64,000 nt of DNA from Candidatus Campbellbacteria bacterium. GTDB lineage: Bacteria > Patescibacteriota > Minisyncoccia > Phycocordibacterales > JAXHMZ01. Shown one piece after another: positions 2,280 to 17,509 of the stretch. The DNA is taken from the NCBI GenBank assembly GCA_034521025.1, contig JAXHMZ010000005.1, positions 26,352 through 90,351 on the forward strand, given 5' to 3'. The position numbers were made by a program, and so were the translations under genes. The notes below the pieces were generated by a model, which searched no databases, was not told where the DNA came from, and saw only the letters and a program-made list of their open reading frames with translations. Every line of letters starts with the position of its first letter. The first letter of the stretch is position 1.

Positions 2280-2660
2280 ATGCAGTTTGCTCTTCAATAT
2301 GTCAGTTGGCATTACTCGCGGGGAGTGCACGACATCGTTGTACTCTGGTCTAATTTTATATGGTTTCTTTCGCACTTTTTCTCCATACCCTTACTCGCCT
2401 CCACCCTATTCTCTCCTTGGAAGAGATTGCACGAGGAGCCCAAAGATGGCTTTGACCTCGAAGATTTCTTCTCCGCCATATTGGTGAACATAATGATGCG
2501 CCTCGTCGGCTTCTTTATGCGCCTGACTATGATAGCCGTGGGGCTAGCTGTTCTCGCGCTCGCTCTCCTCGGTTTGATAATCGATCTCGCCTTTTGGTTG
2601 CTGTGGCCGGCGGTCATTGGAGTGCTATTATTCTTTGGCTTTAGTCTTCTCATCGCGTAA
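2280..2660 (+). CDS. Small polytopic membrane protein (hypothetical), 3 nt upstream of the Clp-like ATPase
   Basis: 126 aa, 3-4 hydrophobic helices; tightly coupled to the next ORF. Confidence 0.5.
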   Translation: MQFALQYVSWHYSRGVHDIVVLWSNFIWFLSHFFSIPLLASTLFSPWKRLHEEPKDGFDLEDFFSAILVNIMMRLVGFFMRLTMIAVGLAVLALALLGLIIDLAFWLLWPAVIGVLLFFGFSLLIA

Positions 2661-2662
2661 AT

Positions 2663-5143
2663 ATGAACGAAAGAGAAATACAAAGAACATTGAGAAGAAA
2701 CAGCGCCGTACTAACACTCGAACGGGTCTTCCCTAGACGCGTCAGAGGCAACGCTCGCCGAATCGTAACGATAATGATCGTTATATTCGGTTTATTTACG
2801 GCAATGTTGTTCTTTTTGGGCAATAGCGACTTTATAAACGAGAGCGACGTTCCCTCTATTCTCAATAATCTAGCCCTTGAGATAACACGCTTCGTCGGCG
2901 CCCTATTTATCCTCACCGTCTTGTGGTTAATTCTCGTAACTCTAGATTTTTTCTACTACTCCAACTATTTCGACGGGTTCAAAAGCACCATCAGTCGCAT
3001 AGAGCTATACAAACGACGAGACGGATTGAGTTTTGCTCTTTTAAAACTACTTGACGGGCATAGAAACGAGAAAGACCTGGCGCAAATCGCCTTCCGATCA
3101 GCTCAAGCCCACGAATTGGTAAACCGTTTGGGCATTCCCTTTAGAGAGCTCAGGAATTTTCTCAAGGAAAATGATCTTGGTATTCCCAAAGAGTTCCCTC
3201 TGCGAGAAAACGGCAAAATGATCTTGATCAGAGATATAATTGCTCTTTCATACCACAAAAGCCCCGCCATACAAGACTTCTTCTTCAAACGGGGTGTAAA
3301 TTCCGATATTTTCTACGGCGCTTTGGAATGGACAGAGGTTATGCGCCGCGAGCGCCTGCGCAACCTTACCTGGTGGTCACGTATCAATCTCGGAGAGATA
3401 TCCGGTATCGCCAAGGACTGGGCGTACGGCGGGGCGTATACTTTGCGCCGCTACGCGACAGAAATTCGCGCACGCCGTACACATGCCGGTACTTCCGTAC
3501 TGCACGCGCGAGATGAAATAGAAACCATACTTTCCAAGTCACGTGAAGCGAACGCGCTTTTGGTAGGAGCGCGAGGAGGCGGACGAGACCAAGTAATATC
3601 TGATTTTGCCGCTCGTGTTTACGAAGGCAAGTCTCCGGCGCCGCTTGAAGGAAAGCATATATTCCGACTGGATTCTGTGGCTCTGTCCACCAACAATCCC
3701 GACAAGCATTCTTTTGAAAGCGAGCTTTTAAAGCTTTTGAACGACAGCGTTCGCGCCGGCAATATAATTCTCGTCATAGACAACATATCCGACTTTCTCC
3801 TCAACGCGAGATCGATCGGCGTTGACGTAAGAGAGATCTTTGATCCGTTCCTCGCGAGCGACTCTCTTCAACTCGTAGCTACCGCCACCCCCGAAGAAGT
3901 TGAAACTTCGCTAAGGGACTTCCCTTTCACGCGTACCAGGTTTGAAAAGATAAGAGTAAAAATAGACGATAATAAAGAGCTTATCTCGCTGTTATCCTAC
4001 GCCGCTTTGAATATTGAAGCTCGCTCTGATGTATTTTTCACCTTCCAGAGTCTCGCTAAAACTGCTGATCTGGCACGGAGCGCGCTAGTTGACTCCACTC
4101 TCCCTGATGACGCTGTAGATATACTCTACGAGGCCGCCGCGGGAGCCAAGACAAGTAACTCTCCTATCATCACTGAAACGGAGATAGAGACTCTGATATC
4201 AAACCGCACCGGCATACCAGTCGGCAAAGCGAGCGCGTCTGAACGCGAAGAACTGCTAAAACTAGAAGAGAACCTGTCCTCTATGGTGGTCGGCCAAACT
4301 GACGCACTCAAGGCCGTATCAAACGCGCTCAGAAGAAACCGAGCCGGCATCGGAGAAGACGATCGCCCGATGGGCTCTTTCCTCTTCCTCGGCCCTACCG
4401 GAGTTGGCAAAACCCAAGTAGCGCGCTCCTTGGAAGCGACCCTTTTTGACGAGAATGGAGTTATGCACCGTTTGGATATGTCAGAATTCCAGAATGAAAA
4501 CGCTCTAGACCGTCTAATCGGAAGCATAGACTCAAAATCACCGGGAATATTGGAAGAAAAGATCAATCGCTCCCCTTACGGTATCCTTCTTCTGGATGAA
4601 TTCGAAAAGGCACACGGAAACGTTCATAACCTGTTTTTGCAGATATTGGACGAAGGATTCTTTGCTAACTCCCACGGCAAAAGAGTTAATATGAGCAATC
4701 TGATAATTATCGCCACCTCGAACGCCGGCAACCAGGAAATACAAGCGGCCGCCAAGTCATCAACTGATCTCTCGGCTTTCAAAGACGAACTGATCTCCAC
4801 CCTTATAAACGATCAGATATTCCGGCCGGAACTCCTAAACCGCTTTGACGAAGTCGTATTGTTCGAGCCGTTATCAAAAGATGATCTGCGAGCCATCGCA
4901 AAGCTTGAGCTCGAAAAACTGGCGGAACGGACAGAGTCAACCAGAGTGCGTATAAATATAACCGACGAACTTGTAGAATTCCTCGCCGAGAAAGGATACG
5001 ACCCGCGTTTCGGAGCAAGAGAAATGAAGCGCGTAATACAAGACTCCATAGAACGCGTACTCTCCGAGAAAATATTAAAGGGTGAAGCGCTTCCCGGCTC
5101 AACCGTGTCACTTTCAAGAGAGGAGCTGGAAAAAGCCCTGTAA
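2663..5143 (+). CDS. Membrane-anchored ClpA/ClpB-family AAA+ ATPase with degenerate first nucleotide-binding domain and intact second one
   Basis: 2 N-terminal TM helices; D1 'LLVGARGGGRDQ' and 'ILVIDNISDF' replace Walker A/B; D2 'VVGQTDALKAVSNALRRNRAGI..FLFLGPTGVGKTQ..LLLDEFEKAH..IIATSNAG..RPELLNRFDEVVLFEPL' canonical. Confidence 0.8.
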   Translation: MNEREIQRTLRRNSAVLTLERVFPRRVRGNARRIVTIMIVIFGLFTAMLFFLGNSDFINESDVPSILNNLALEITRFVGALFILTVLWLILVTLDFFYYSNYFDGFKSTISRIELYKRRDGLSFALLKLLDGHRNEKDLAQIAFRSAQAHELVNRLGIPFRELRNFLKENDLGIPKEFPLRENGKMILIRDIIALSYHKSPAIQDFFFKRGVNSDIFYGALEWTEVMRRERLRNLTWWSRINLGEISGIAKDWAYGGAYTLRRYATEIRARRTHAGTSVLHARDEIETILSKSREANALLVGARGGGRDQVISDFAARVYEGKSPAPLEGKHIFRLDSVALSTNNPDKHSFESELLKLLNDSVRAGNIILVIDNISDFLLNARSIGVDVREIFDPFLASDSLQLVATATPEEVETSLRDFPFTRTRFEKIRVKIDDNKELISLLSYAALNIEARSDVFFTFQSLAKTADLARSALVDSTLPDDAVDILYEAAAGAKTSNSPIITETEIETLISNRTGIPVGKASASEREELLKLEENLSSMVVGQTDALKAVSNALRRNRAGIGEDDRPMGSFLFLGPTGVGKTQVARSLEATLFDENGVMHRLDMSEFQNENALDRLIGSIDSKSPGILEEKINRSPYGILLLDEFEKAHGNVHNLFLQILDEGFFANSHGKRVNMSNLIIIATSNAGNQEIQAAAKSSTDLSAFKDELISTLINDQIFRPELLNRFDEVVLFEPLSKDDLRAIAKLELEKLAERTESTRVRINITDELVEFLAEKGYDPRFGAREMKRVIQDSIERVLSEKILKGEALPGSTVSLSREELEKAL

Positions 5144-5397: not shown

Positions 5398-6087
5398 CTA
5401 TTGGTTGTTCTCTTCGTTTATCAATGCTTCCAGACGAGCGATCTGCTCAGCATATATGGCGTCATACTGAGGATTCAGCGCGGCCGCCTCTTGCCAGTAC
5501 TGCAGTGCCTCCTCGAATTCCCCTTGGTCTTCTAGGTAATAGGCGTAAGTAACAAGAGAGCCGGTAGCGCGATCTGTCGCTTCTATGGCTTGCTCTATCC
5601 TCGCTTTAAGCTCTTCGCCTCCCACGTCAAACTGGTTTTTCTCGAGCTCTATAAGAAGGTTCCAATAGGCGAAGTTCTCCGGATGATTTTCGGTCGCTTC
5701 CACCAAGACGTCTCTCGCGCGATCATAGTTCTCCGCTTCTGCCTCCATATCATAGATAGCCCTGATCGCTTCCTGTGGATCTTCGGTGTACTCTATGGCG
5801 TTTTCGTAGGCGCTTCGCGCCGCTCGCAAATCCCCTATACGCGCGCTTGCGTTACCGATTATCATATATTCGTTGTAGTAGGCCTTGTCGTTCTCTTCTT
5901 CCCTTCTGTCAAAATCCCTGATCGCCTCTCTAGACTCAGAGATAACCTCTTCCTGTTGCGCTATCTCCTCTGAGGATAGTCCGGTATCGCGTCTCTCAAG
6001 GGCGTTTTCCGGCACCAGCAGGGCCACCGCTATGAGTGCCACCAGAACCGTACCGGCTACAAGTATAATTCTAATTTTTTCTTTCAT
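5398..6087 (-). CDS. Membrane-anchored tetratricopeptide-repeat protein
   Basis: N-terminal TM helix; repeated A..Y..A TPR-like periodicity. Confidence 0.6.
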   Translation of the reverse strand: MKEKIRIILVAGTVLVALIAVALLVPENALERRDTGLSSEEIAQQEEVISESREAIRDFDRREEENDKAYYNEYMIIGNASARIGDLRAARSAYENAIEYTEDPQEAIRAIYDMEAEAENYDRARDVLVEATENHPENFAYWNLLIELEKNQFDVGGEELKARIEQAIEATDRATGSLVTYAYYLEDQGEFEEALQYWQEAAALNPQYDAIYAEQIARLEALINEENNQ

Positions 6088-10722: not shown

Positions 10723-10780
10723 GAGCCTCGCTCAGCTGTTTTGTTCAAGAGACGTGAGTCTCTATACGAGAACCCTAGTG

Positions 10781-12784
10781 ATTAGGATCCGTCGTTGAGA
10801 TACTCTTGATCTGGTCTCGATACTTTCGCCAGTTACATCCACTTCGGTCAAACCGCTCGCACCAGTGCTGTTCGTCGTGATCTGTAGTCAGCGAGCTGAA
10901 TTCCGTAGAATCCGGCGACACCGACAGTATTAGTGTTCTCAGCGACGACACGAATGCGGAATGTTTCGGTCTCTCCCGCGCGAACGAGATATGCATCACT
11001 GAGTTGTCCTGATCAGCACCGAAGGTGATGTCAATGTCGAATTCTCGAGATCCGTGAGTTTCCTCCGAGGAGGTCGTAATCGAATCCGTTGTTCGGTCAC
11101 CAGTCGCAACAGCATTGTTGATATAATAATCATCTTCGATAGCGGTAAGGTCAAACGTGAGCTTGAGAGTCGCTCGGTCGGCATCGTCGTTGATATCGGT
11201 GCTCTGCGACCAGTCACCTGTTACCACCGTCGTCGTTACAACATCATGCGTTGTTCCTGCACCGATGCCGATCGACGTTTCGTTAGCAGCTTCGAAGTCT
11301 TCGTCCTCTGCTCGAATTTCATCAAGCTCAGCTTCGATGGTGTCGGCTACGCTGAATCCTGTGTTTGATGTTGCGTAGAAGTCAACTTCGACTGACATCT
11401 CTTGCTCTTCACCTTCAGGGATCGTGTACTCGAGGTTGTCGAACGTAACGGTCTGGTTCGATGTACCACTGAGGCCGCTTGTTGTCTCGGTTCCGACGAG
11501 ATCACCGTCAGCGTAGAGTCGTGCACGGCGAACCATATCCTCTACGGCGCTTGTCGTGGTCGAGAGGTTTACATCAACCTCGTCGATCTCGATGTCCTGG
11601 TTCTCCGCTTCTGCGTTGAACACAAGCACCTCTTGGTTGTCGGTTCGGTTGGTGTCGTCAACGACGAATACGGTCTCGTCGGGCGTGTTAGCGCTCGTGC
11701 TGAGATCAAGTGATCCTTGTCCGAAGTTGTCGTCAAACGTGACGTCAACGTCGCCGATGTCGCCATCCGCGCTAGGGCCGTATCCGATGATACCTGCTCC
11801 GTCTAGGAAGCGTACGCCGTCTTCATCCATCGTAGCGACGACTGTGTCGGTATCACGCGTACCAGCGAGAGTGCTGTGCACCTCTACTTCGAGCGCAAGC
11901 TCGACAGTATCACCTTCTCGTACAACCTCATCGAGGCCGGAGAAGCGTGCTCTCCATTCAGAGCCAACTTCAGAGTAGTCACCTGAATCGTCTCCAAGAA
12001 CTGCTACTTCGGTTCCGTCGACCATAAGTCGGACTTCATTGAAGTAGAGCCATGGACGTGAGTCGAACATAAAGTCGACGCGGTTCATCTCGACGTCAGA
12101 GTCTTCTGCCGTAGCTTCGAGTTCAACAGCTACGTCAGTGTCTCCCGTGTCGATCTCGACCGATCCGACGCTGAGGTCGTTAAAGTCGAGGAATCCTTCA
12201 CCTCCGGATAGACCTTCGTCGTCCGAGTCGTCGGAGTCATCGCTGTCGTCACCATCATCTCCGTCGTCGCCGTCGTCACCGTCGTCACCATCACCTGCGG
12301 TGATGATAGCGTTGGCTTGAGCGCGAGAAGATGGTCCAAAGTATCCTGTTCCCGCGGAAAGACCGAGGGGTGCAAGGATCTGTGAAGAGTAAGCTCCTTG
12401 GAAGTCAGTTACAGCGGCTGCTGTAAGTGGTCCATAGTAGCTTGTCTCCTGTCCAGGAGATCCTGCTCCGCTAGTGGCTACTGTAAAGCCGTTAGCGTTG
12501 AGGAACTCTTGGAGTCTCAATACTTCAGTTCCGGTAGCACCTACTCCCATGGAGCGGGTGAACGGAGTGAAGTCTCCACTAACTGAAGCTTGGCCGTCAA
12601 TTTGCGCTTGCAAATCGGCGATCTGTGCTTCGAGTTGTGCAATGATCGCTGCTAGGTCGTCTGCATCGCTTTGTGCTTGTGCTTGGTAAGCACCGGCAAA
12701 AGCGAATGTCGCTACAAGAGCGAGGACCGCAACGAACCCAACTACCTTGTAGGTAATTGCATTTCGCATTTCGTATAAACTCAT
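10781..12784 (-). pseudogene. Paralog C of the envelope protein; 5' two-thirds intact, 3' ~400 nt carry at least two frameshifts (true stop inferred at ggatcctaa 10781..10789)
   Basis: Called ORF ends in nonsense tail '...FARERPKHSAFVSSLRTL'; alternate frames restore 'DAYLVRAGETETF...GFYGIQLADY' and 'QITTNSTGASGLTEVDVTGESIET' matching paralog B; 1-nt deletion near 10900 and 1-nt insertion near 10812. Confidence 0.55.
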
Positions 12785-13703
12785 AATTATGATTTTCTAC
12801 TTATTAGAATGCTTTGCGTTTTGATTAATATAATGCTTTGCAAAACATTTTTGCGGCACACCCGCTAAGGTGCACCGCGCTACTTATAATTCCTTGTAAT
12901 GTTGCCCGTAGTTGCCTAGGCTGTGCGCGCCACCGGCAATTTATTGGGCTCATACTATCTCGCCTACTCCTAATATTTCGACCAGGAGAAAACGAGTTAG
13001 ATGCACGTTTGTCGTACGGGTATTCAGTCGTTCGGTATGTTTGTCGGGATATTCTGTTTTCAACGTTCATTCCGTATCGTTCAACGGTGGCGCTATGCCT
13101 AACTTTGGTTGAACGGTGCTCTGTCTAAACAAAACCTGTATTAAACAAGGTTTGCCTTCAATCTTAGCACAGTTCCCTTGTCAGGCAACAGATCGTGTTC
13201 CCACGTATTGTGGAAAACGATCCCCGCCTCTGAACCTAGAGACAATTATAGTACAGACGTTTGCTCTTGCAAATATTTGTGTGGATAAAACATACATATG
13301 AGCGCGCCATACAAGGATTTATAAAAGACAAATGCTTTTAAATCGCTTGCCTCTTTTGTACACGCCTTTTGCCTATAGGGTGTTAAAGAGGCACGCCCAC
13401 TGACTTCTATCCATAAAATTTACAAAGCAAGCGCGTCTGTACCACGTGCTCGCAGTTCTACTACTTCTGACGAACCTAAAAAGCTTTTCTTACAACGCAC
13501 CGTCAATTCCAAAATCTTAATTCTACCCTTATTTTGAGATGCGCTCGTTAGCGATCCTCTTCTAACAAAACGCAACAACAAAACGTTCAAAAATTACCAA
13601 AACTAAAAAGCTATAAAGGACATTTAATATTTATAAAAGACATAAAGGAGAAAATATTTGAAACTATAATTACTAAATCGTTAAGAATGTCTTTTATGTG
13701 TCC
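12785..13703. other. ~0.9 kb ORF-free region with local hairpins and direct repeats; function unknown (long leader, ncRNA, or origin-like region)
   Basis: Only short low-quality ORFs on both strands; hairpins gcaaaacatttttgc and gcctcttt...aaagaggc; direct repeat aatgctttgc x2; AAAGGACA copies at its right end. Confidence 0.3.
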
Positions 13704-14567
13704 TTAAGAAGAACTGTTGAGGCGATAACGACTCCAGCGACGACTGCCGAGGCGTTCGAGTACGCCTTCTTCAACCATGCCAACAATCTCTCTTTGTAGC
13801 GTTTTTTCACTACAGTCCTGGATCTCGCGAGCGGCGTCTTTTACGGTGATCTCCTTTTTGTCCTTAACAAGCTGAATGATGATATCTCTTCTCTGTGTCT
13901 TTGAGAGTGTGCTCGGCTGTAATTGTGTCCTTTTGATTTTTGTCTTTTTGTTGTCCTTTATGTCCTTTTGATTTGTTTTTTGTCCTTTAGAACTTTCCTC
14001 CGCATTCTCGGTTTTCTCTTTTTCGGGAGAACTTATTCCTTGTACTTTATTGCTCGCGCTTGATTCAAGTTTGCCACCTGAACGATTTTCAAAAGCTATC
14101 CCAAATAGATATTTCTCGAGTGAGTCCGTTGTCTGTCTTTCCTCGCTGACATTGAAAAAGTTCTGGGGAAACAACACAGGATCGTGCTTTCCCTCCTTGT
14201 CCGCCTGGTCTTCAAGTGCGTTTAAAAGGGTTTCGTATTCTTGACGCAAGACGGAGAAATTCATTTCCGAGATCAGTCCGGCAGTATGAGCTACACCCAG
14301 AGTGGCAAGAATTGTCGAAAGCGAGTTTTTTATAAAAGACAAGTCAATTGATCTCTCGGATTCGATAGAATCAGCCAGTATGGAGAAATATTCAAGCAGA
14401 GTTAAGTTGTCAGACCGTAGCTTCCACTTGAGGGGTTCGCTCTCTGAGAAGAAGTTCGTTATGAGATATACGGCACGGGCGAGACGTTCTGTCTTTTTTA
14501 CTGCGTAGTAAAAAAAGGCTTTGTTAAGAGTGTATGACTGCAGTTCCTGGGTTGTATTTTCTGCCAT
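13704..14567 (-). CDS. Hypothetical DNA-binding protein with C-terminal winged-helix domain and internal K/D/T-rich linker
   Basis: C-terminus 'RRDIIIQLVKDKKEITVKDAAREIQDCSEKTLQREIVGMVEEGVLERLGSRRWSRYRL' is HTH/wH-like; linker coded by repeated aaaggaca units. Confidence 0.5.
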   Translation of the reverse strand: MAENTTQELQSYTLNKAFFYYAVKKTERLARAVYLITNFFSESEPLKWKLRSDNLTLLEYFSILADSIESERSIDLSFIKNSLSTILATLGVAHTAGLISEMNFSVLRQEYETLLNALEDQADKEGKHDPVLFPQNFFNVSEERQTTDSLEKYLFGIAFENRSGGKLESSASNKVQGISSPEKEKTENAEESSKGQKTNQKDIKDNKKTKIKRTQLQPSTLSKTQRRDIIIQLVKDKKEITVKDAAREIQDCSEKTLQREIVGMVEEGVLERLGSRRWSRYRLNSSS

Positions 14568-14585
14568 GTCTTTTATATATTATCG

Positions 14586-14680
14586 TGTCCTTTAGGATAA
14601 TTTGTCCTTTATAAAAATTGTCCTTTTGTCCTTTAGAGACACATTCCTCTATAAAGGACATTATACAAATATAAAGGACA
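14586..14680. promoter_or_regulatory. Iteron-like array in the divergent promoter between the wHTH gene and ftsK: TGTCCTTT x4 direct then AAAGGACA x2 inverted
   Basis: Copies at 14586, 14603, 14619, 14627 (forward) and 14653, 14673 (reverse); 4 more inside the gene (13926..13988) and 3 partial downstream (13616..13707). Confidence 0.6.
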
Positions 14681-14776
14681 GAAGTAAAGTTATTAACACC
14701 TCTCTGTCGCGTTTGTAGCGGAGGCGCTATGGGGTTACAATAGAGTGGAAATTTAATCATTACCTTAGAAACCTAA

Positions 14777-17128
14777 ATGGCACGCAAGAAATCAAAATCA
14801 GAGAAAAACAAGAACTCTAAAGAGTCATCCAAAAAGAAGAACAAGAAGTCCGAGAAAGATGAAGGAATGCTGATCTGGAACCTTGAGGAACACGTGGCAC
14901 AAGCCCTCTTGGCGCTTTTGTTTTTTGTGTTGGCGGTTTTCTTTACCCTCTCCTATTTTGAGCAAGCGGGCATCGCCGGCGAGCACGCATTTTCTCTTTT
15001 TGAAAGACTTCTCGGTTACGGATATTTCTTGCTTCCGCTTTCAATGTTCATTCTTTCTATAAATTTTTTGCGGAAGCTAAAAGTTAACTTCGCCGTCTCA
15101 AGCGGAGCCGGGATCACGCTCTTTATGATCTCCGGACTTGGACTTATAAACATCGCCACCGACAGCAAAGGCGGAGTCATTGGCAATTTGGTCTCGGACC
15201 CGCTTCTGCCTTTGTTCGATCTCTATGTGACGTTTGTACTTCTAGCGGCAATGATGATCCTTTCGTTCGTACTTCTCTTTGACTTGAAACTTTCCTCTAT
15301 TGATTTCAACTCTCTTAAGTTCTGGAAGAAAGACGAGGAGGACAAAGACTATCTCGCCGCCTCTATCGCCCATCCCGCGGGAGCGGAACAGGCCGAGAGA
15401 GCTATGGCCGAAGAAGAACGCAAGAACGCCGAAAAGAGCACCAAGGAAGAAGGAAGGCCGGAGAAACCTTCAGGTGGAATACTCAGCGGATTGGTCGGAA
15501 AACAAAACAAAGACAAAGAGCTCGATATAGACAGCAAGCTTTCGATAGATACTTCGCGACTGGGCGCGCCATTTACTCCTCCACCACTGAAGCTTTTGAC
15601 CAAGGACAGCGGCAAGCCGTCCGTCGGCGATGTTAAAACCAACGCCAATGTTATAAAGCGCACTCTCAGTAACTTTGGTATTGACGTAGAAATGGACGAG
15701 GTGTCGGTCGGACCCACTGTTACTCGCTACGCCTTGAAGCCGGCCGAAGGAGTAAAGCTTTCGCGAATAGAGGGACTGCAAAAAGAAATACAAGCGGCAC
15801 TCGCGGCCAAGTCGATAAGGATAGAAGCACCGATCCCGGGCAAGTCCCTGGTCGGTATAGAAGTACCAAATATCTCTAAAGCAACAGTCGGTCTGGCTTC
15901 CCTCTTCTCTGATCCCGCCTTTGCTCAAAGCGACAATCCGCTCCTGGTCGCCCTCGGACGAAATCTCTCCGGAGAAGCCGAATTCGCTGACTTTGGCAAA
16001 ATGCCTCACCTCTTGGTAGCGGGAGCTACCGGCGCCGGAAAGTCTGTGACGGTGCATATGCTAATAGCTTCTCTCCTGTATAGGAACTCGCCGGAGAACC
16101 TTAGATTTATCATGGTTGACCCCAAGCGAGTAGAGCTAACTCCGTACAACGACATCCCTCACCTGCTAACTCCGGTTATAAAGAACGCCAAAAAAGCGAT
16201 CCTCGCTTTGAAGTGGGCTGCTAAGGAAATGGAAAGACGGTACGACATATTGGAAAGCTATAGAGTACAAAATATAGACTCTTATCACAAAAACATACTG
16301 GAACCGGCCATAAAAGACATTGAAAAGAAACGAAAGAACAAGGACTCCGAAGAAGTGGAAGACGAACTACCGGAATCAATGCCATATATTGTAATCGTCA
16401 TAGACGAGTTGGCTGATATTATGTCGGCCTACCCCAAAGAGCTCGAGGCGGCTATCGTGCGATTGGCGCAGATGAGCCGTGCAGTCGGTATTCACCTAAT
16501 ACTATCTACCCAAAGGCCCGACGTACGCGTCATAACCGGACTGATCAAAGCCAACATTCCATCCCGTATCGCACTCCAAGTGTCTTCACAGATCGACTCT
16601 CGCACCATCATAGACAAAGCGGGAGCGGAAAGACTTCTCGGTAAAGGAGATATGCTTTATCAAGGAGGAGAAATGGCCAAACCGGCGCGTATTCAATCCG
16701 GTTTCGTGACCGAAGAAGAGATCAAAAGGGTTGTTGATTGGCTCATTAAGCACTATTCGGGACAATTGCCAGATACCATTGATCTCGATAGCGAGACACG
16801 CGAAAACAACACTGACAGCATTTTCAGCTCCGTGGTTGCCGACGAATCCAGCGAAGAAGACGAAAAATTCGAAGAAGCCAAGCAAACGGTTATGGAAGCC
16901 GGTAGGGCTTCGACCTCGTACTTACAGCGCAAATTGGGCGTTGGCTATTCACGAGCCGCCAAGTTAATTGATATGCTGGAAGAACAAGGCATCATTGGAC
17001 CACAAAATGGCTCCAAGCCACGAGAAGTACTCGCCAAAGGAGAAGAGTCTGAGGAAGACAGCTCCGAGAGCTACGAAGAGAACACGGAAGAAGATAACCA
17101 GAAAGGCCTCAGCGAGGAAGACTTGTAG
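14777..17128 (+). CDS. ftsK: DNA translocase FtsK/SpoIIIE (N-terminal TM domain, motor domain, C-terminal gamma wH domain)
   Basis: 'LLVAGATGAGKSVTVHMLIASLL..FIMVDPKRVEL', Walker B 'IVIVIDELADIM', gamma 'TSYLQRKLGVGYSRAAKLIDMLEEQGIIGP'. Confidence 0.9.
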   Translation: MARKKSKSEKNKNSKESSKKKNKKSEKDEGMLIWNLEEHVAQALLALLFFVLAVFFTLSYFEQAGIAGEHAFSLFERLLGYGYFLLPLSMFILSINFLRKLKVNFAVSSGAGITLFMISGLGLINIATDSKGGVIGNLVSDPLLPLFDLYVTFVLLAAMMILSFVLLFDLKLSSIDFNSLKFWKKDEEDKDYLAASIAHPAGAEQAERAMAEEERKNAEKSTKEEGRPEKPSGGILSGLVGKQNKDKELDIDSKLSIDTSRLGAPFTPPPLKLLTKDSGKPSVGDVKTNANVIKRTLSNFGIDVEMDEVSVGPTVTRYALKPAEGVKLSRIEGLQKEIQAALAAKSIRIEAPIPGKSLVGIEVPNISKATVGLASLFSDPAFAQSDNPLLVALGRNLSGEAEFADFGKMPHLLVAGATGAGKSVTVHMLIASLLYRNSPENLRFIMVDPKRVELTPYNDIPHLLTPVIKNAKKAILALKWAAKEMERRYDILESYRVQNIDSYHKNILEPAIKDIEKKRKNKDSEEVEDELPESMPYIVIVIDELADIMSAYPKELEAAIVRLAQMSRAVGIHLILSTQRPDVRVITGLIKANIPSRIALQVSSQIDSRTIIDKAGAERLLGKGDMLYQGGEMAKPARIQSGFVTEEEIKRVVDWLIKHYSGQLPDTIDLDSETRENNTDSIFSSVVADESSEEDEKFEEAKQTVMEAGRASTSYLQRKLGVGYSRAAKLIDMLEEQGIIGPQNGSKPREVLAKGEESEEDSSESYEENTEEDNQKGLSEEDL

Positions 17129-17146
17129 TAGAATATATAAACAACC

Positions 17147-17509
17147 ATGAACGGAAACGCCTTTAACGCTCGCAATATAATGAAGGCGATCTTGCTTATC
17201 GCGATCGCCTCAGGTGTGGCGTCTTACGCCTACTATCAATCACAACCGCTTATGGCCGGACCGGAAATCGCCTTTAGTGATCCCGAAAACGGCGATGTTA
17301 TTAAGGAGTCCCCTATCGAGATCACCGGCACCGCCGAGCGCATTTCTTTTATCAAACTTAATGGCCGGCAAATTTATATCAACGAAAGCGGAGTTTTCGA
17401 GGAGAAATTGCCCTTACTTCCCGGTCATAATATAATAGAGCTACAGGCAGAGGATCGTTTTGGAAGAGTTACTACTAAAAGACTCAACCTTATGTACGAA
17501 GGTGAGTAA
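17147..17509 (+). CDS. Small secreted/membrane-anchored hypothetical protein
   Basis: 120 aa; N-terminal hydrophobic segment. Confidence 0.45.
   Translation: MNGNAFNARNIMKAILLIAIASGVASYAYYQSQPLMAGPEIAFSDPENGDVIKESPIEITGTAERISFIKLNGRQIYINESGVFEEKLPLLPGHNIIELQAEDRFGRVTTKRLNLMYEGE

What the first reader, a model, noticed from the sequence alone, without database searches (positions are those of the whole stretch)
13600..14776. Iteron-like 8-mer array (TGTCCTTT/AAAGGACA) in the divergent ftsK promoter, inside and downstream of a wHTH protein gene
Six copies of one 8-mer lie within 95 bp just upstream of the wHTH protein gene 13704..14567 and ~100 bp before ftsK: four direct TGTCCTTT at 14586, 14603, 14619, 14627 and two inverted at 14653, 14673. 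Four more copies lie in-frame inside that gene, where they code its KGQ/KDI/KDN linker (13926..13988). Three partial copies flank its stop (13616..13707). This density is far above chance and looks like operator or iteron sites for the adjacent winged-helix protein. Possible readings are autoregulation, control of ftsK, or, together with the neighbouring 0.9 kb ORF-free region, a plasmid-like Rep-iteron replication or partition module. The in-gene copies overlap coding sequence, which is odd in itself.
Basis: seen in the sequence. Interest (0 to 1): 0.65.

Follow-up and report, generated by a model that had tools for sequence, protein, structure and literature searches.

The report
Self-operator array of a Patescibacteria regulator
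The repeated 8-mer is real and is the conserved DNA site, most likely the operator, of an uncharacterised regulator found across a large group of ultra-small bacteria; copies cover the regulator's own promoter and are also written into its coding sequence, and it is not a replication origin.

Summary
TGTCCTTT/AAAGGACA occurs 12 times in 64 kb against 2.6 expected, and 11 copies lie in 13615..14680.

The gene 13704..14567(-) is a hypothetical protein of a Campbellbacteria MAG. It has an N-terminal four-helix bundle, a roughly 95-residue disordered linker and a C-terminal DeoR-like winged helix. The family is large: at least 569 species and 2364 clusters at 50% identity.

In 77 loci whose proteins are only about 30% identical, the same motif (consensus TATAAA[G/A]GACA) marks this gene. 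There are 5-6 sites over the promoter and 5'UTR and 5-6 inside the gene, mostly in the linker and in all three reading frames. Synonymous shuffles give 31.5±4.6 in-gene copies against 152 observed.

Sites overlap the predicted -35, spacer or -10 and are phased at about 10 bp. The best reading is multi-site autorepression by the encoded protein.

The Rep-iteron or origin reading is not supported. There is no skew or strand switch, and only 1-2 DnaA boxes sit beside a promoter. Control of ftsK is possible but unproven.

The same sites also flank a DnaA box in a conserved promoter downstream of xth that drives an unannotated structured RNA of about 430 nt. No binding experiment exists.

The parts
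13704..14567 (-). Regulator gene (287 aa): four-helix bundle (res 3-126), disordered linker (127-222), winged helix (223-283)
   Evidence: ORF and translation. The protein is identical to a hypothetical protein of a Ca. Campbellbacteria MAG. AF2 model has pLDDT >95 in both domains. HTH_DeoR match is weak, 16.9 bits at residues 226-273.
14660..14688 (-). Predicted promoter of the regulator gene: -35 TTTACT (14688..14683), 17-nt spacer, -10 TATAAT (14665..14660)
   Evidence: Consensus scan, 10 of 12 matches. The same layout, with the motif in the spacer and directly after the -10, is seen in related loci.
14670..14681 (+). Site TATAAAGGACAG inside the promoter spacer (antisense to the regulator gene)
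   Evidence: Exact 8-mer at 14673. PWM score 16.7 bits.
14650..14661 (+). Site TATAAAGGACAT abutting the -10 and covering the predicted transcription start
   Evidence: Exact 8-mer at 14653. PWM score 18.1 bits.
14566..14637 (-). Five gene-sense sites in the predicted 5'UTR: 14626..14637, 14618..14629, 14602..14613, 14585..14596 and the variant ATAAAAGACAT at 14566..14577 over the start codon
   Evidence: PWM scores 11.7-17.5 bits.
13925..13991 (-). Intragenic array in the linker-coding DNA: sites at 13980..13991, 13960..13971, 13951..13962, 13940..13951 and 13925..13936. Weaker sites lie at 13895..13906 and 13858..13869.
   Evidence: The sites use three reading frames (and offsets). They are islands of identity against homolog L001 within otherwise diverged linker DNA. 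Family-wide synonymous shuffle gives 152 observed against 31.5±4.6.
13612..13709 (.). Convergent array at the 3' end: sense sites 13698..13709 (over the stop codon) and 13687..13698; antisense sites 13632..13643 and 13612..13623
   Evidence: A comparable array follows the stop codon in L001. Across loci the first 150 nt after the stop are enriched only about 7-fold.
14777..17128 (+). ftsK, divergent neighbour. It heads the ftsK - small gene - recA - efp run.
   Evidence: Pfam domains FtsK_SpoIIIE, FtsK_alpha and FtsK_gamma. The divergent arrangement is kept in 80 of 81 loci.
13245..13288 (-). Perfect DnaA box TTATCCACA (13288..13280) followed by promoter TTGCAA (13272..13267), 16 nt, TATAAT (13250..13245)
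   Evidence: The box plus promoter is the most conserved block of the region downstream of the regulator gene.
12785..13244 (-). Conserved non-coding 5' leader (about 450 nt) of the next gene.
   Evidence: Iterative nhmmer finds it in 68 of 77 loci, including window 12994..13330. It runs up to the ATG of the downstream gene. No Rfam match even at E<=10.
13320..13331 (+). Isolated site TATAAAAGACAA about 35 nt upstream of the DnaA box
   Evidence: PWM score 16.8 bits. Its function is unknown.
10775..12784 (-). Downstream gene (669 aa, PG_binding_1 domain), syntenic in 72 loci

Best explanation
The 8-mer is the core of an 11-bp operator, TATAAA(G/A)GACA. The protein encoded by 13704..14567 most likely binds it through its C-terminal winged helix.

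**Anatomy (shown).** Sites sit in the spacer and at the -10/+1 of the gene's own predicted promoter, in its 5'UTR, over its start codon, in the linker-coding DNA and at its 3' end.

**Mechanism (inferred).**
- The four-helix-bundle domain oligomerises. Its closest structural relatives include Avd, which forms a pentamer.
- The long disordered linkers let several winged-helix heads reach clustered, irregularly spaced sites on one face of the DNA.
- This gives avidity-driven occlusion of RNA polymerase, that is negative autoregulation.
- The intragenic and 3' clusters add looping or roadblock strength.

**Wider role.** The protein is a clade-wide transcription factor, not a replication protein. 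The same sites overlap the -35 and spacer of a second conserved promoter downstream of xth, which also carries a DnaA box. Co-control of the divergent ftsK-recA-efp genes is possible but not shown.
For: 1. **Local enrichment.** 12 copies against 2.6 expected, 11 of them in 1.07 kb, and no other cluster in the window.

2. **Phylogenetic footprint.** In 812 kb from 77 loci, the gene-sense 8-mer occurs 155 times in the gene and 66 times within 400 nt upstream, nearly all between -75 and 0. It occurs 12 times in the other roughly 700 kb. PWM site density is 27/kb over promoter and UTR, 7.9/kb in the gene and 0.33/kb elsewhere.

3. **DNA-level selection inside the gene.** 152 copies are observed against 31.5±4.6 (maximum 44) in synonymous-codon shuffles. 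97 of them lie in the linker, in three frames coding KGQ/KGH, xKD and KRT. Identity islands sit exactly at the sites when compared with L001.

4. **Overlap with core promoter elements.** Predicted promoter TTTACT-17-TATAAT carries one site in the spacer and one after the -10. A -10-like hexamer followed by RGACA occurs in 44 of 77 loci, against 0.001 expected per 200 nt. The palindrome TGTCY-N10/11-RGACA occurs in 15 of 77 loci.

5. **Helical phasing.** Adjacent upstream sites are spaced at 11, 19-23 and 28-33 bp (vector strength 0.26 at period 10, n=207).

6. **Invariance on both sides.** The recognition helix SEKT(I/L)QRE and the wing RRW are essentially invariant, as is the motif core GACA.

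8. **Second target.** The composite site - DnaA box - TGTCCTTTACA (-35) - TGTCCTTTA (spacer) - -10 was found in 12 motif-selected loci. It was also found in 5 of 6 loci fetched only through xth homologues; in the sixth (L206) the same site pair lies about 0.5 kb past the xth stop and was not inspected.
Against: - There is no binding, expression or transcription-start data for any member. The link between protein and motif rests on co-localisation.
- The recognition helix and the motif are both invariant, so no co-variation test is possible.
- The HTH match of the window protein is below Pfam's cut-off (16.9 against 21 bits).
- Upstream copies show a strong sense-strand bias (66:5), which also fits an RNA-level function.
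- The loci were taken as the best 80 of more than 569, and related genomes are not independent observations.
Confidence: 0.7

Rival explanations
1. RNA-level element: the sense-strand copies in the 5'UTR and coding region are binding sites on the mRNA for the protein itself or another factor. Translation or stability would be controlled in the manner of TRAP or CsrA. AAAGGA might also act as a Shine-Dalgarno-like ribosome site.
For: - Sense:antisense ratio is 66:5 upstream and 155:21 in the gene.
- In several loci a copy sits 5-7 nt before the ATG.
- The N-terminal domain resembles Avd and the 23S-rRNA-IVS proteins, which are associated with RNA.
Against: - In the window two copies lie in the promoter spacer and at the -10, in antisense orientation.
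- In the xth-downstream promoter the antisense copies form the -35 and fill the spacer in 12 motif-selected loci and in 5 of 6 unselected loci, upstream of any transcript.
- Antisense copies follow the stop codon.
- Spacing shows the roughly 10-bp phasing expected for duplex DNA.
- The sense bias inside the gene is explained by coding. AAAGGACA gives K/G/Q/D/R/T, whereas the reverse gives C/P/F/V/L, which suits a hydrophilic linker poorly.
Confidence: 0.1
2. The sites are bound by a different protein, for example a partner of DnaA or another regulator. The winged-helix gene would then be only its best-conserved target.
For: - No direct evidence links the protein to the motif.
- DnaA boxes sit inside the second class of arrays (15 of 69 clusters against about 3 expected).
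- A DnaA box also sits next to the regulator gene.
Against: - The arrays accompany this gene in 77 of 77 loci and were found nowhere else in 870 kb of flanks plus window.
- Autoregulated repressors with operators on their own promoter are the common case.
- The invariant recognition helix matches the invariant motif.
Confidence: 0.12
3. Iteron-type replication origin or partition centromere with its Rep/ParB-like binding protein.
For: - Clustered direct repeats lie next to a winged-helix gene.
- A DnaA box is nearby, and ftsK is the neighbour.
- The winged helix weakly resembles the archaeal centromere binder AspA.
Against: - GC skew stays negative across the window with no flip.
- Genes are on the - strand on both sides of the locus.
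- Only 1-2 DnaA boxes are present per locus, placed directly upstream of a -35.
- Sites are 9-11 bp with spacings of 8-33 bp, not 17-22 bp iterons.
- No Rep, ParA or ParB domains are present.
- The gene is chromosomal, single-copy and syntenic in hundreds of species.
- The sites coincide with promoter elements.
Confidence: 0.03
4. Chance or compositional artefact: A/T-rich codon bias and a lysine-rich linker create the 8-mer.
For: - Coding coincidences do occur. rplO of gut bacteria carries TAAAGGACATAAAGGACA for the peptide KGHKGQK.
- Part of the cca signal may be of the same kind.
Against: - Dinucleotide shuffles of the window give 0 of 100 reaching 12 copies.
- Synonymous shuffles put the observed count about 26 standard deviations above the mean.
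- Non-coding copies upstream are enriched about 80-fold.
Confidence: 0.01

Closest known systems
E. coli DeoR repressor with its three deo operators (from my own knowledge)
   Same: DeoR-type helix-turn-helix. A higher oligomer binds several operator clusters hundreds of bp apart and represses by looping. Here there are three clusters, at the promoter, about +600 bp and about +950 bp.
   Different: The HTH is C-terminal, not N-terminal. There is no DeoRC sugar-phosphate domain; a four-helix bundle and a roughly 95-residue disordered linker take its place. Sites are short, asymmetric and numerous (5-6 per cluster). Two clusters lie inside or behind the regulator's own coding sequence.
MraZ and its direct-repeat operator ahead of the division/cell-wall cluster (from my own knowledge)
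   Same: A clade-wide conserved, autoregulated oligomeric regulator that reads an array of short direct repeats next to cell-division genes.
   Different: The fold is unrelated (MraZ uses SpoVT/AbrB-type domains). MraZ repeats are few and regularly spaced. MraZ has no intragenic array.
Plasmid Rep proteins and iterons (RepA, RepE, Pi; from my own knowledge)
   Same: A winged-helix protein with repeated direct sites next to its gene, and autorepression through sites overlapping its promoter.
   Different: Iterons are 17-22 bp at regular spacing and sit in an origin with an AT-rich unwinding element. Rep proteins have two winged-helix domains. None of this is found here.
Regulators that bind next to DnaA boxes (CtrA, Spo0A, MtrA, HP1021 at oriC; DnaA as a transcription factor, PMC11317965)
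   Same: In the second target, the sites flank and abut a perfect DnaA box. A DnaA box also precedes the promoter next to the regulator gene.
   Different: Here the DnaA box is single or double and sits immediately upstream of a -35, so the context is a promoter and not an origin. The protein is not a response regulator.
Avd / PF05635 four-helix-bundle proteins (Avd is pentameric: PMC6182149)
   Different: Those proteins are stand-alone, about 110 aa, and work with reverse transcriptase and RNA. A fusion to a winged helix through a long linker has not been described, as far as I could find.

Membership tests
Rep-iteron replication module | Iterons of about 17-22 bp in regular tandem array | tested here: not met
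   The conserved unit is 9-11 bp. Spacings are 8-33 bp with only about 10-bp phasing.
Rep-iteron replication module | Initiator with Rep-type tandem winged-helix domains | tested here: not met
   Pfam and NCBIfam give only one weak DeoR-like HTH. The AF2 model shows a four-helix bundle plus a single winged helix.
Chromosomal origin (oriC) | Cluster of DnaA boxes with an unwinding element, plus a switch of GC skew and gene strand | tested here: not met
   Skew is negative throughout. The - strand dominates on both sides. There are 1-2 boxes per locus, against a background of 0.18 per 700 nt, positioned at a promoter.
DeoR family regulators | N-terminal HTH_DeoR (PF08220) passing threshold | tested here: inconclusive
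   The window protein scores 16.9 bits against a cut-off of 21, and the domain is C-terminal. 109 of 119 relatives match at E<=1, best 1.4e-6.
DeoR family regulators | C-terminal DeoRC effector domain | tested here: not met
   No such hit. The other domain is a four-helix bundle.
PF05635 / Avd-like four-helix-bundle proteins | Sequence match to the family model | tested here: inconclusive
   11 of 119 members match, best E 0.0047, all below cut-off. A profile search against PDB sequences finds none.
PF05635 / Avd-like four-helix-bundle proteins | Same fold | tested here: met
PF05635 / Avd-like four-helix-bundle proteins | Pentameric barrel | not testable with these tools
   Only monomer prediction is available. 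The pentamer is known for Avd (PMC6182149).
LexA / SOS repressor | S24 peptidase domain and a palindromic SOS box upstream of recA and lexA | tested here: not met
   No Peptidase_S24 hit. recA lies inside the ftsK run with no array of its own.
ParB-parS partition system | ParB N-terminal/HTH domains, a neighbouring ParA and a 16-bp palindromic parS | tested here: not met
   No ParB or ParA domains in the gene or its neighbours. The sites are asymmetric.
Autoregulated multi-operator repressor (functional class) | Sites overlapping the regulator's own core promoter | tested here: met
   Met for predicted promoters only. No experimental transcription start is available.
Autoregulated multi-operator repressor (functional class) | Binding of the protein to the sites, with repression | not testable with these tools
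   Needs EMSA or footprinting and reporter assays.

The most novel reading that the evidence does not exclude
The family is a multivalent hub regulator. An Avd-like pentameric barrel carries five winged-helix heads on long flexible tethers, and these read arrays of about five short sites.

The DNA coding for the tether has itself been turned into an operator array, in all three reading frames. The gene is therefore both template and target.

Together with DnaA, the protein gates a small cell-cycle regulon in Paceibacteria. That regulon would comprise its own gene, the ftsK-recA run, a DnaA-box promoter for a cell-wall protein and a new roughly 430-nt structured RNA. If so, it would be the first defined master regulator of these uncultivated, reduced-genome bacteria.
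Probability: 0.2. Interest if true: 0.85.

Novelty: new variant of a known kind. Interest (0 to 1): 0.66.

Why it matters
Almost nothing is known about gene regulation in Patescibacteria (CPR). These bacteria have tiny genomes, few regulators and almost no cultured members.

This analysis gives a clade-wide regulator family with a computationally defined 11-bp operator and a conserved promoter layout. It also identifies at least two conserved target loci, one of them shared with DnaA. All of this can be tested in vitro with synthetic DNA and recombinant protein.

The intragenic array is a clean natural example of dual coding. A regulatory DNA signal is maintained in three reading frames inside the one part of the protein, a disordered linker, that can tolerate it.

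The work also uncovered two conserved non-coding RNAs or leaders that have no Rfam family.

Tried and rejected
- **Rfam on the window and gap.** Only two tRNAs were found in the window, and nothing in the gap at E<=10.
- **RNAalifold on crude MAFFT alignments of the leader.** It recovered only one short helix, because indels spoil the alignment.
- **Origin or terminus test.** Negative.
- **Exact look-up of the window protein's contig.** Not on record.
- **Profile search against PDB sequences.** Nothing useful.
- **Metagenome scan for TAAAGGACA-N0-30-TAAAGGACA.**
  - Only 17 of 120 hits carry the regulator.
  - Many hits are chance or coding coincidences, for example rplO KGHKGQK in gut bacteria and tandem repeats.
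  - The scan is therefore not a regulon census, though it did lead to the xth/cca locus.
- **Search for co-variation between recognition-helix residues and the G/A variant of the motif.** Both are invariant, so there is no signal.
- **Leader profile against the xth-cca gaps.** No relation.
- **tmRNA test of the 430-nt RNA.** Negative.
- **Literature searches for the motif, the family, CPR regulators or CPR origins.** Nothing relevant was found.
- **SOS/LexA-like idea prompted by the recA neighbour.** Dropped, because there is no S24 domain and recA has no array of its own.
Full report
**1. Observation.**

The 8-mer TGTCCTTT/AAAGGACA occurs 12 times in the 64 kb window. Dinucleotide-preserving shuffles give 2.58±1.50, and none of 100 reaches 12.

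The four in-gene copies are not in one frame. Their offsets from the ATG (579, 599, 608, 634) put them in frames 0, 2, 2 and 1, coding KGQ, KDI, KDN and (K)RT. One-mismatch variants add further copies:
- AAAAGACA over the start codon and at 13941
- AAAAGACA at 13635 and 13688
- TAAGGACA over the stop codon

**2. The gene.**

ORF 13704..14567(-) encodes 287 aa and is identical to a 'hypothetical protein' of a Candidatus Campbellbacteria MAG. Pfam gives only a sub-threshold DeoR-like HTH at residues 226-273.

An AlphaFold model built on 119 relatives shows three parts:
- a confident four-helix bundle (residues 3-126)
- a disordered linker (127-222)
- a winged helix (223-283)

The family is large and uniform in architecture. 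At least 569 species representatives in GTDB carry it, and it spans 2364 clusters at 50% identity with E<=1e-30. All named sources are Patescibacteria of the Parcubacteria/Paceibacteria type.

**3. The motif follows the gene.**

I analysed 77 loci totalling 812 kb, with proteins mostly about 30% identical to the window's. The gene-sense 8-mer is distributed as follows:

| Region | Gene-sense copies |
|---|---|
| Inside the gene | 155 |
| 400 nt upstream (nearly all -75..0) | 66 |
| Remaining ~700 kb | 12 |

A weight matrix refined on the upstream regions has the consensus TATAAA(G/A)GACA. Site densities are:

| Region | Sites per kb |
|---|---|
| Promoter + 5'UTR | 27 |
| Gene | 7.9 |
| 150 nt after the stop | 2.3 |
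| Elsewhere | 0.33 |

The modal count is 5-6 sites per promoter region and 5-6 per gene. No cluster of 3 or more sites occurs anywhere else in these loci or in the window.

The recognition helix SEKT(I/L)QRE and the wing RRW are essentially invariant, as is the GACA core.

**4. The in-gene copies are selected at the DNA level.**

- Permuting synonymous codons within each gene gives 31.5±4.6 copies (maximum 44) against 152 observed.
- 97 copies lie in the linker-coding part (7.8/kb). The N-terminal domain has 0.6/kb and the winged helix 2.1/kb.
- The copies use all three frames, coding KGQ/KGH, xKD and KRT.
- Against the 57%-identical homologue L001, the linker DNA is diverged except for islands of identity exactly at the sites.
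- The odd 'KGQ...IKDIKD...KRT' peptides that recur in an otherwise unconserved linker are therefore the protein-level shadow of a DNA signal.

**5. Promoter anatomy.**

In the window a consensus scan finds -35 TTTACT (14688..14683), a 17-nt spacer and -10 TATAAT (14665..14660) on the gene strand. One copy lies in the spacer and one directly after the -10. Four exact copies and one variant then fill the predicted 85-nt 5'UTR up to the ATG.

Related loci show the same logic:
- TTGACT/TTGACG as the -35
- often TGTCCGTT in the spacer
- TATAAT immediately followed by GGACA
- 2-4 sense copies downstream, and one at codons 4-6

A -10-like hexamer followed by RGACA is present upstream in 44 of 77 loci, against 0.001 expected per 200 nt. 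A palindrome TGTCY-N10/11-RGACA straddling the -10 occurs in 15 of 77 loci. Adjacent same-strand sites are spaced preferentially at 11, 19-23 and 28-33 bp, which places them on one face of duplex DNA.

**6. Not an origin, iteron array or centromere.**

- GC skew is negative across the whole window and does not change sign.
- Genes lie on the - strand on both sides of the locus.
- No Rep, ParA or ParB domain is present.
- The '0.9 kb ORF-free region' is conserved in 68 of 77 loci.
- Its core is one perfect DnaA box, GTTATCCACAC, directly followed by a strong promoter. In the window these are 13288..13280, TTGCAA 13272..13267 and TATAAT 13250..13245.
- The conservation runs to the ATG of the next gene, a PG_binding_1 protein. 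The region is therefore that gene's long 5' leader.
- Loci carry 1-2 DnaA boxes against a background of 0.18 per 700 nt. That fits DnaA acting as a transcription factor, not an origin.

**7. Synteny.**

The arrangement efp <- recA <- small gene <- ftsK | regulator -> leader -> PG_binding gene is kept in about 80 of 81 loci.

Whether the arrays also control ftsK is open. In short intergenic regions the ftsK promoter must overlap the array. A -10 plus RGACA on the ftsK strand is seen in only 14 of 77 loci. In the window the candidate ftsK promoters are weak and were identified by eye.

**8. A second target.**

A metagenome scan for two copies of TAAAGGACA within 30 nt returned 120 loci. Seventeen carry the regulator. 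Many others are chance or coding coincidences, such as rplO KGHKGQK. Twenty-three fall in a conserved Paceibacteria block containing yraN, cca, xth and rpsO.

Immediately after the xth stop lies a composite element with this order:
1. TATAAAGGACA
2. a DnaA box, TTATCCACA
3. TGTCCTTTACA, whose TTTACA is a -35
4. a second TGTCCTTTA inside the 16-17-nt spacer
5. a TATAAT-like -10

Fifteen of 69 site clusters contain a DnaA box, against about 3 expected.

I then fetched six loci only through xth homologues, without reference to the motif. Five carry the same element right after the xth stop. In the sixth (L206) the matching site pair lies about 0.5 kb downstream and I did not inspect it. The xth relatives are named Pacebacteria, Parcubacteria or Paceibacterota.

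The promoter drives a roughly 430-nt RNA with these properties:
- a conserved 5' end, AGACCAGCGUGAUGGUGAUUCCAAAG
- 78 predicted pairs, 27 with compensatory changes in six sequences, and a terminal stem followed by a U-run
- no Rfam match
- no tmRNA call by ARAGORN

Because the antisense copies here form the -35 and spacer, upstream of any transcript, the motif must act on DNA.

**9. Mechanism.**

*Shown computationally:* the location, conservation and DNA-level selection of the sites; their overlap with predicted core promoters; the protein's domain layout.

*Inferred:*
- The encoded protein binds the sites through its winged helix.
- Binding represses its own promoter and the xth-downstream promoter by occlusion.
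- The four-helix bundle makes an oligomer. Avd, a close structural match, is a pentamer (PMC6182149). The oligomer's flexibly tethered heads would bind clustered, irregularly spaced sites with high avidity.
- The linker and 3' clusters strengthen repression by looping or roadblock, as multi-operator repressors such as DeoR do (my own knowledge).

The signal that relieves repression is unknown.

**10. Rivals.**

- *RNA-level role.* It is favoured by the sense bias. It is contradicted by the copies within promoters, by the antisense copies and by the helical phasing.
- *A different binding protein.* This cannot be excluded without experiments.
- *Origin or iteron.* Rejected on the evidence in section 6.
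- *Chance.* Rejected by the shuffles.

**11. Novelty and limits.**

I found no paper on this motif, this family or CPR regulons of this kind. The kind of system, an autoregulated winged-helix repressor with a multi-site operator, is known. The new elements are:
- the domain combination
- the clade-wide invariant operator
- the operator array embedded in three frames in the regulator's own linker-coding DNA
- the pairing with DnaA boxes

Everything here is computational. The loci are related, so they are not independent observations. Promoters and transcription starts are predicted. The link between the two target loci and one protein rests on motif identity and shared taxonomy, not on a single complete genome.

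Noticed in passing
window 12785..13330 (- strand); L002-L080 downstream of the regulator gene: There is a conserved non-coding block of up to about 550 nt. Its most conserved core is an invariant DnaA box plus a strong promoter, preceded in about half the loci by an upstream promoter-like element that the window lacks. A leader then runs to the ATG of a PG_binding_1 gene. It is present in 68 of 77 loci, has no Rfam match, and at least one helix shows compensatory changes. It may be a new cis-regulatory leader.
   Followed up: partly
L201:3367-3828, L203:3347-3814, L204:3340-3749, L205:3411-3840, L206:3887-4324, L187:8395-8848: An unannotated structured RNA of about 430 nt lies between xth and cca in Paceibacteria. 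It has 78 predicted pairs, 27 with compensatory changes, and a terminal stem plus U-run. It has no Rfam family and is not called as tmRNA. Its promoter combines a DnaA box with the same sites studied here.
   Followed up: partly
L201-L206 and L178, L130, L152 (cca gene): The CCA-adding enzyme gene carries two sense sites 24 nt apart, coding KGH...KGQKD, in all six loci fetched without reference to the motif. In L130 this has grown into a 7-site in-gene array (2604..2741). L130 also has a 10-site convergent array with a DnaA box upstream of rpsO (4091..4318). It is unclear how much of this is coding coincidence.
   Followed up: partly
L003, L031, L034, L036, L021, L062, L064 and others (contig ranges): Many regulator loci end within 0.3-12 kb of a contig end on the downstream side, in or beyond the PG_binding gene. 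This suggests a repeat or a strain-variable region that breaks assemblies there.
   Followed up: no
window 13209..13217 (-): A second, one-mismatch DnaA-like box (TTTTCCACA) lies about 30 nt downstream of the leader promoter's -10, inside the predicted transcript.
   Followed up: no
window 17147..17509 (+): A small 120-aa gene with a Glucodextran_B-like domain sits between ftsK and recA and is syntenic in 72 loci. Its function in this context is unknown.
   Followed up: no
L090, L093, L095, L102, L104, L135, L154, L172 (human-gut contigs): The pair TAAAGGACATAAAGGACA occurs inside rplO, where it codes the conserved L15 peptide KGHKGQK. This coding coincidence is unrelated to the Paceibacteria system and is a caution for motif scans.
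   Followed up: yes
L008 about 5745..5790 (intergenic, between ftsK and the regulator promoter): A perfect long hairpin (aaatgagggtttgcgcgaagcgcaaaccctcattt) lies between the divergent genes in this locus only. It is terminator-like or an inserted element.
   Followed up: no
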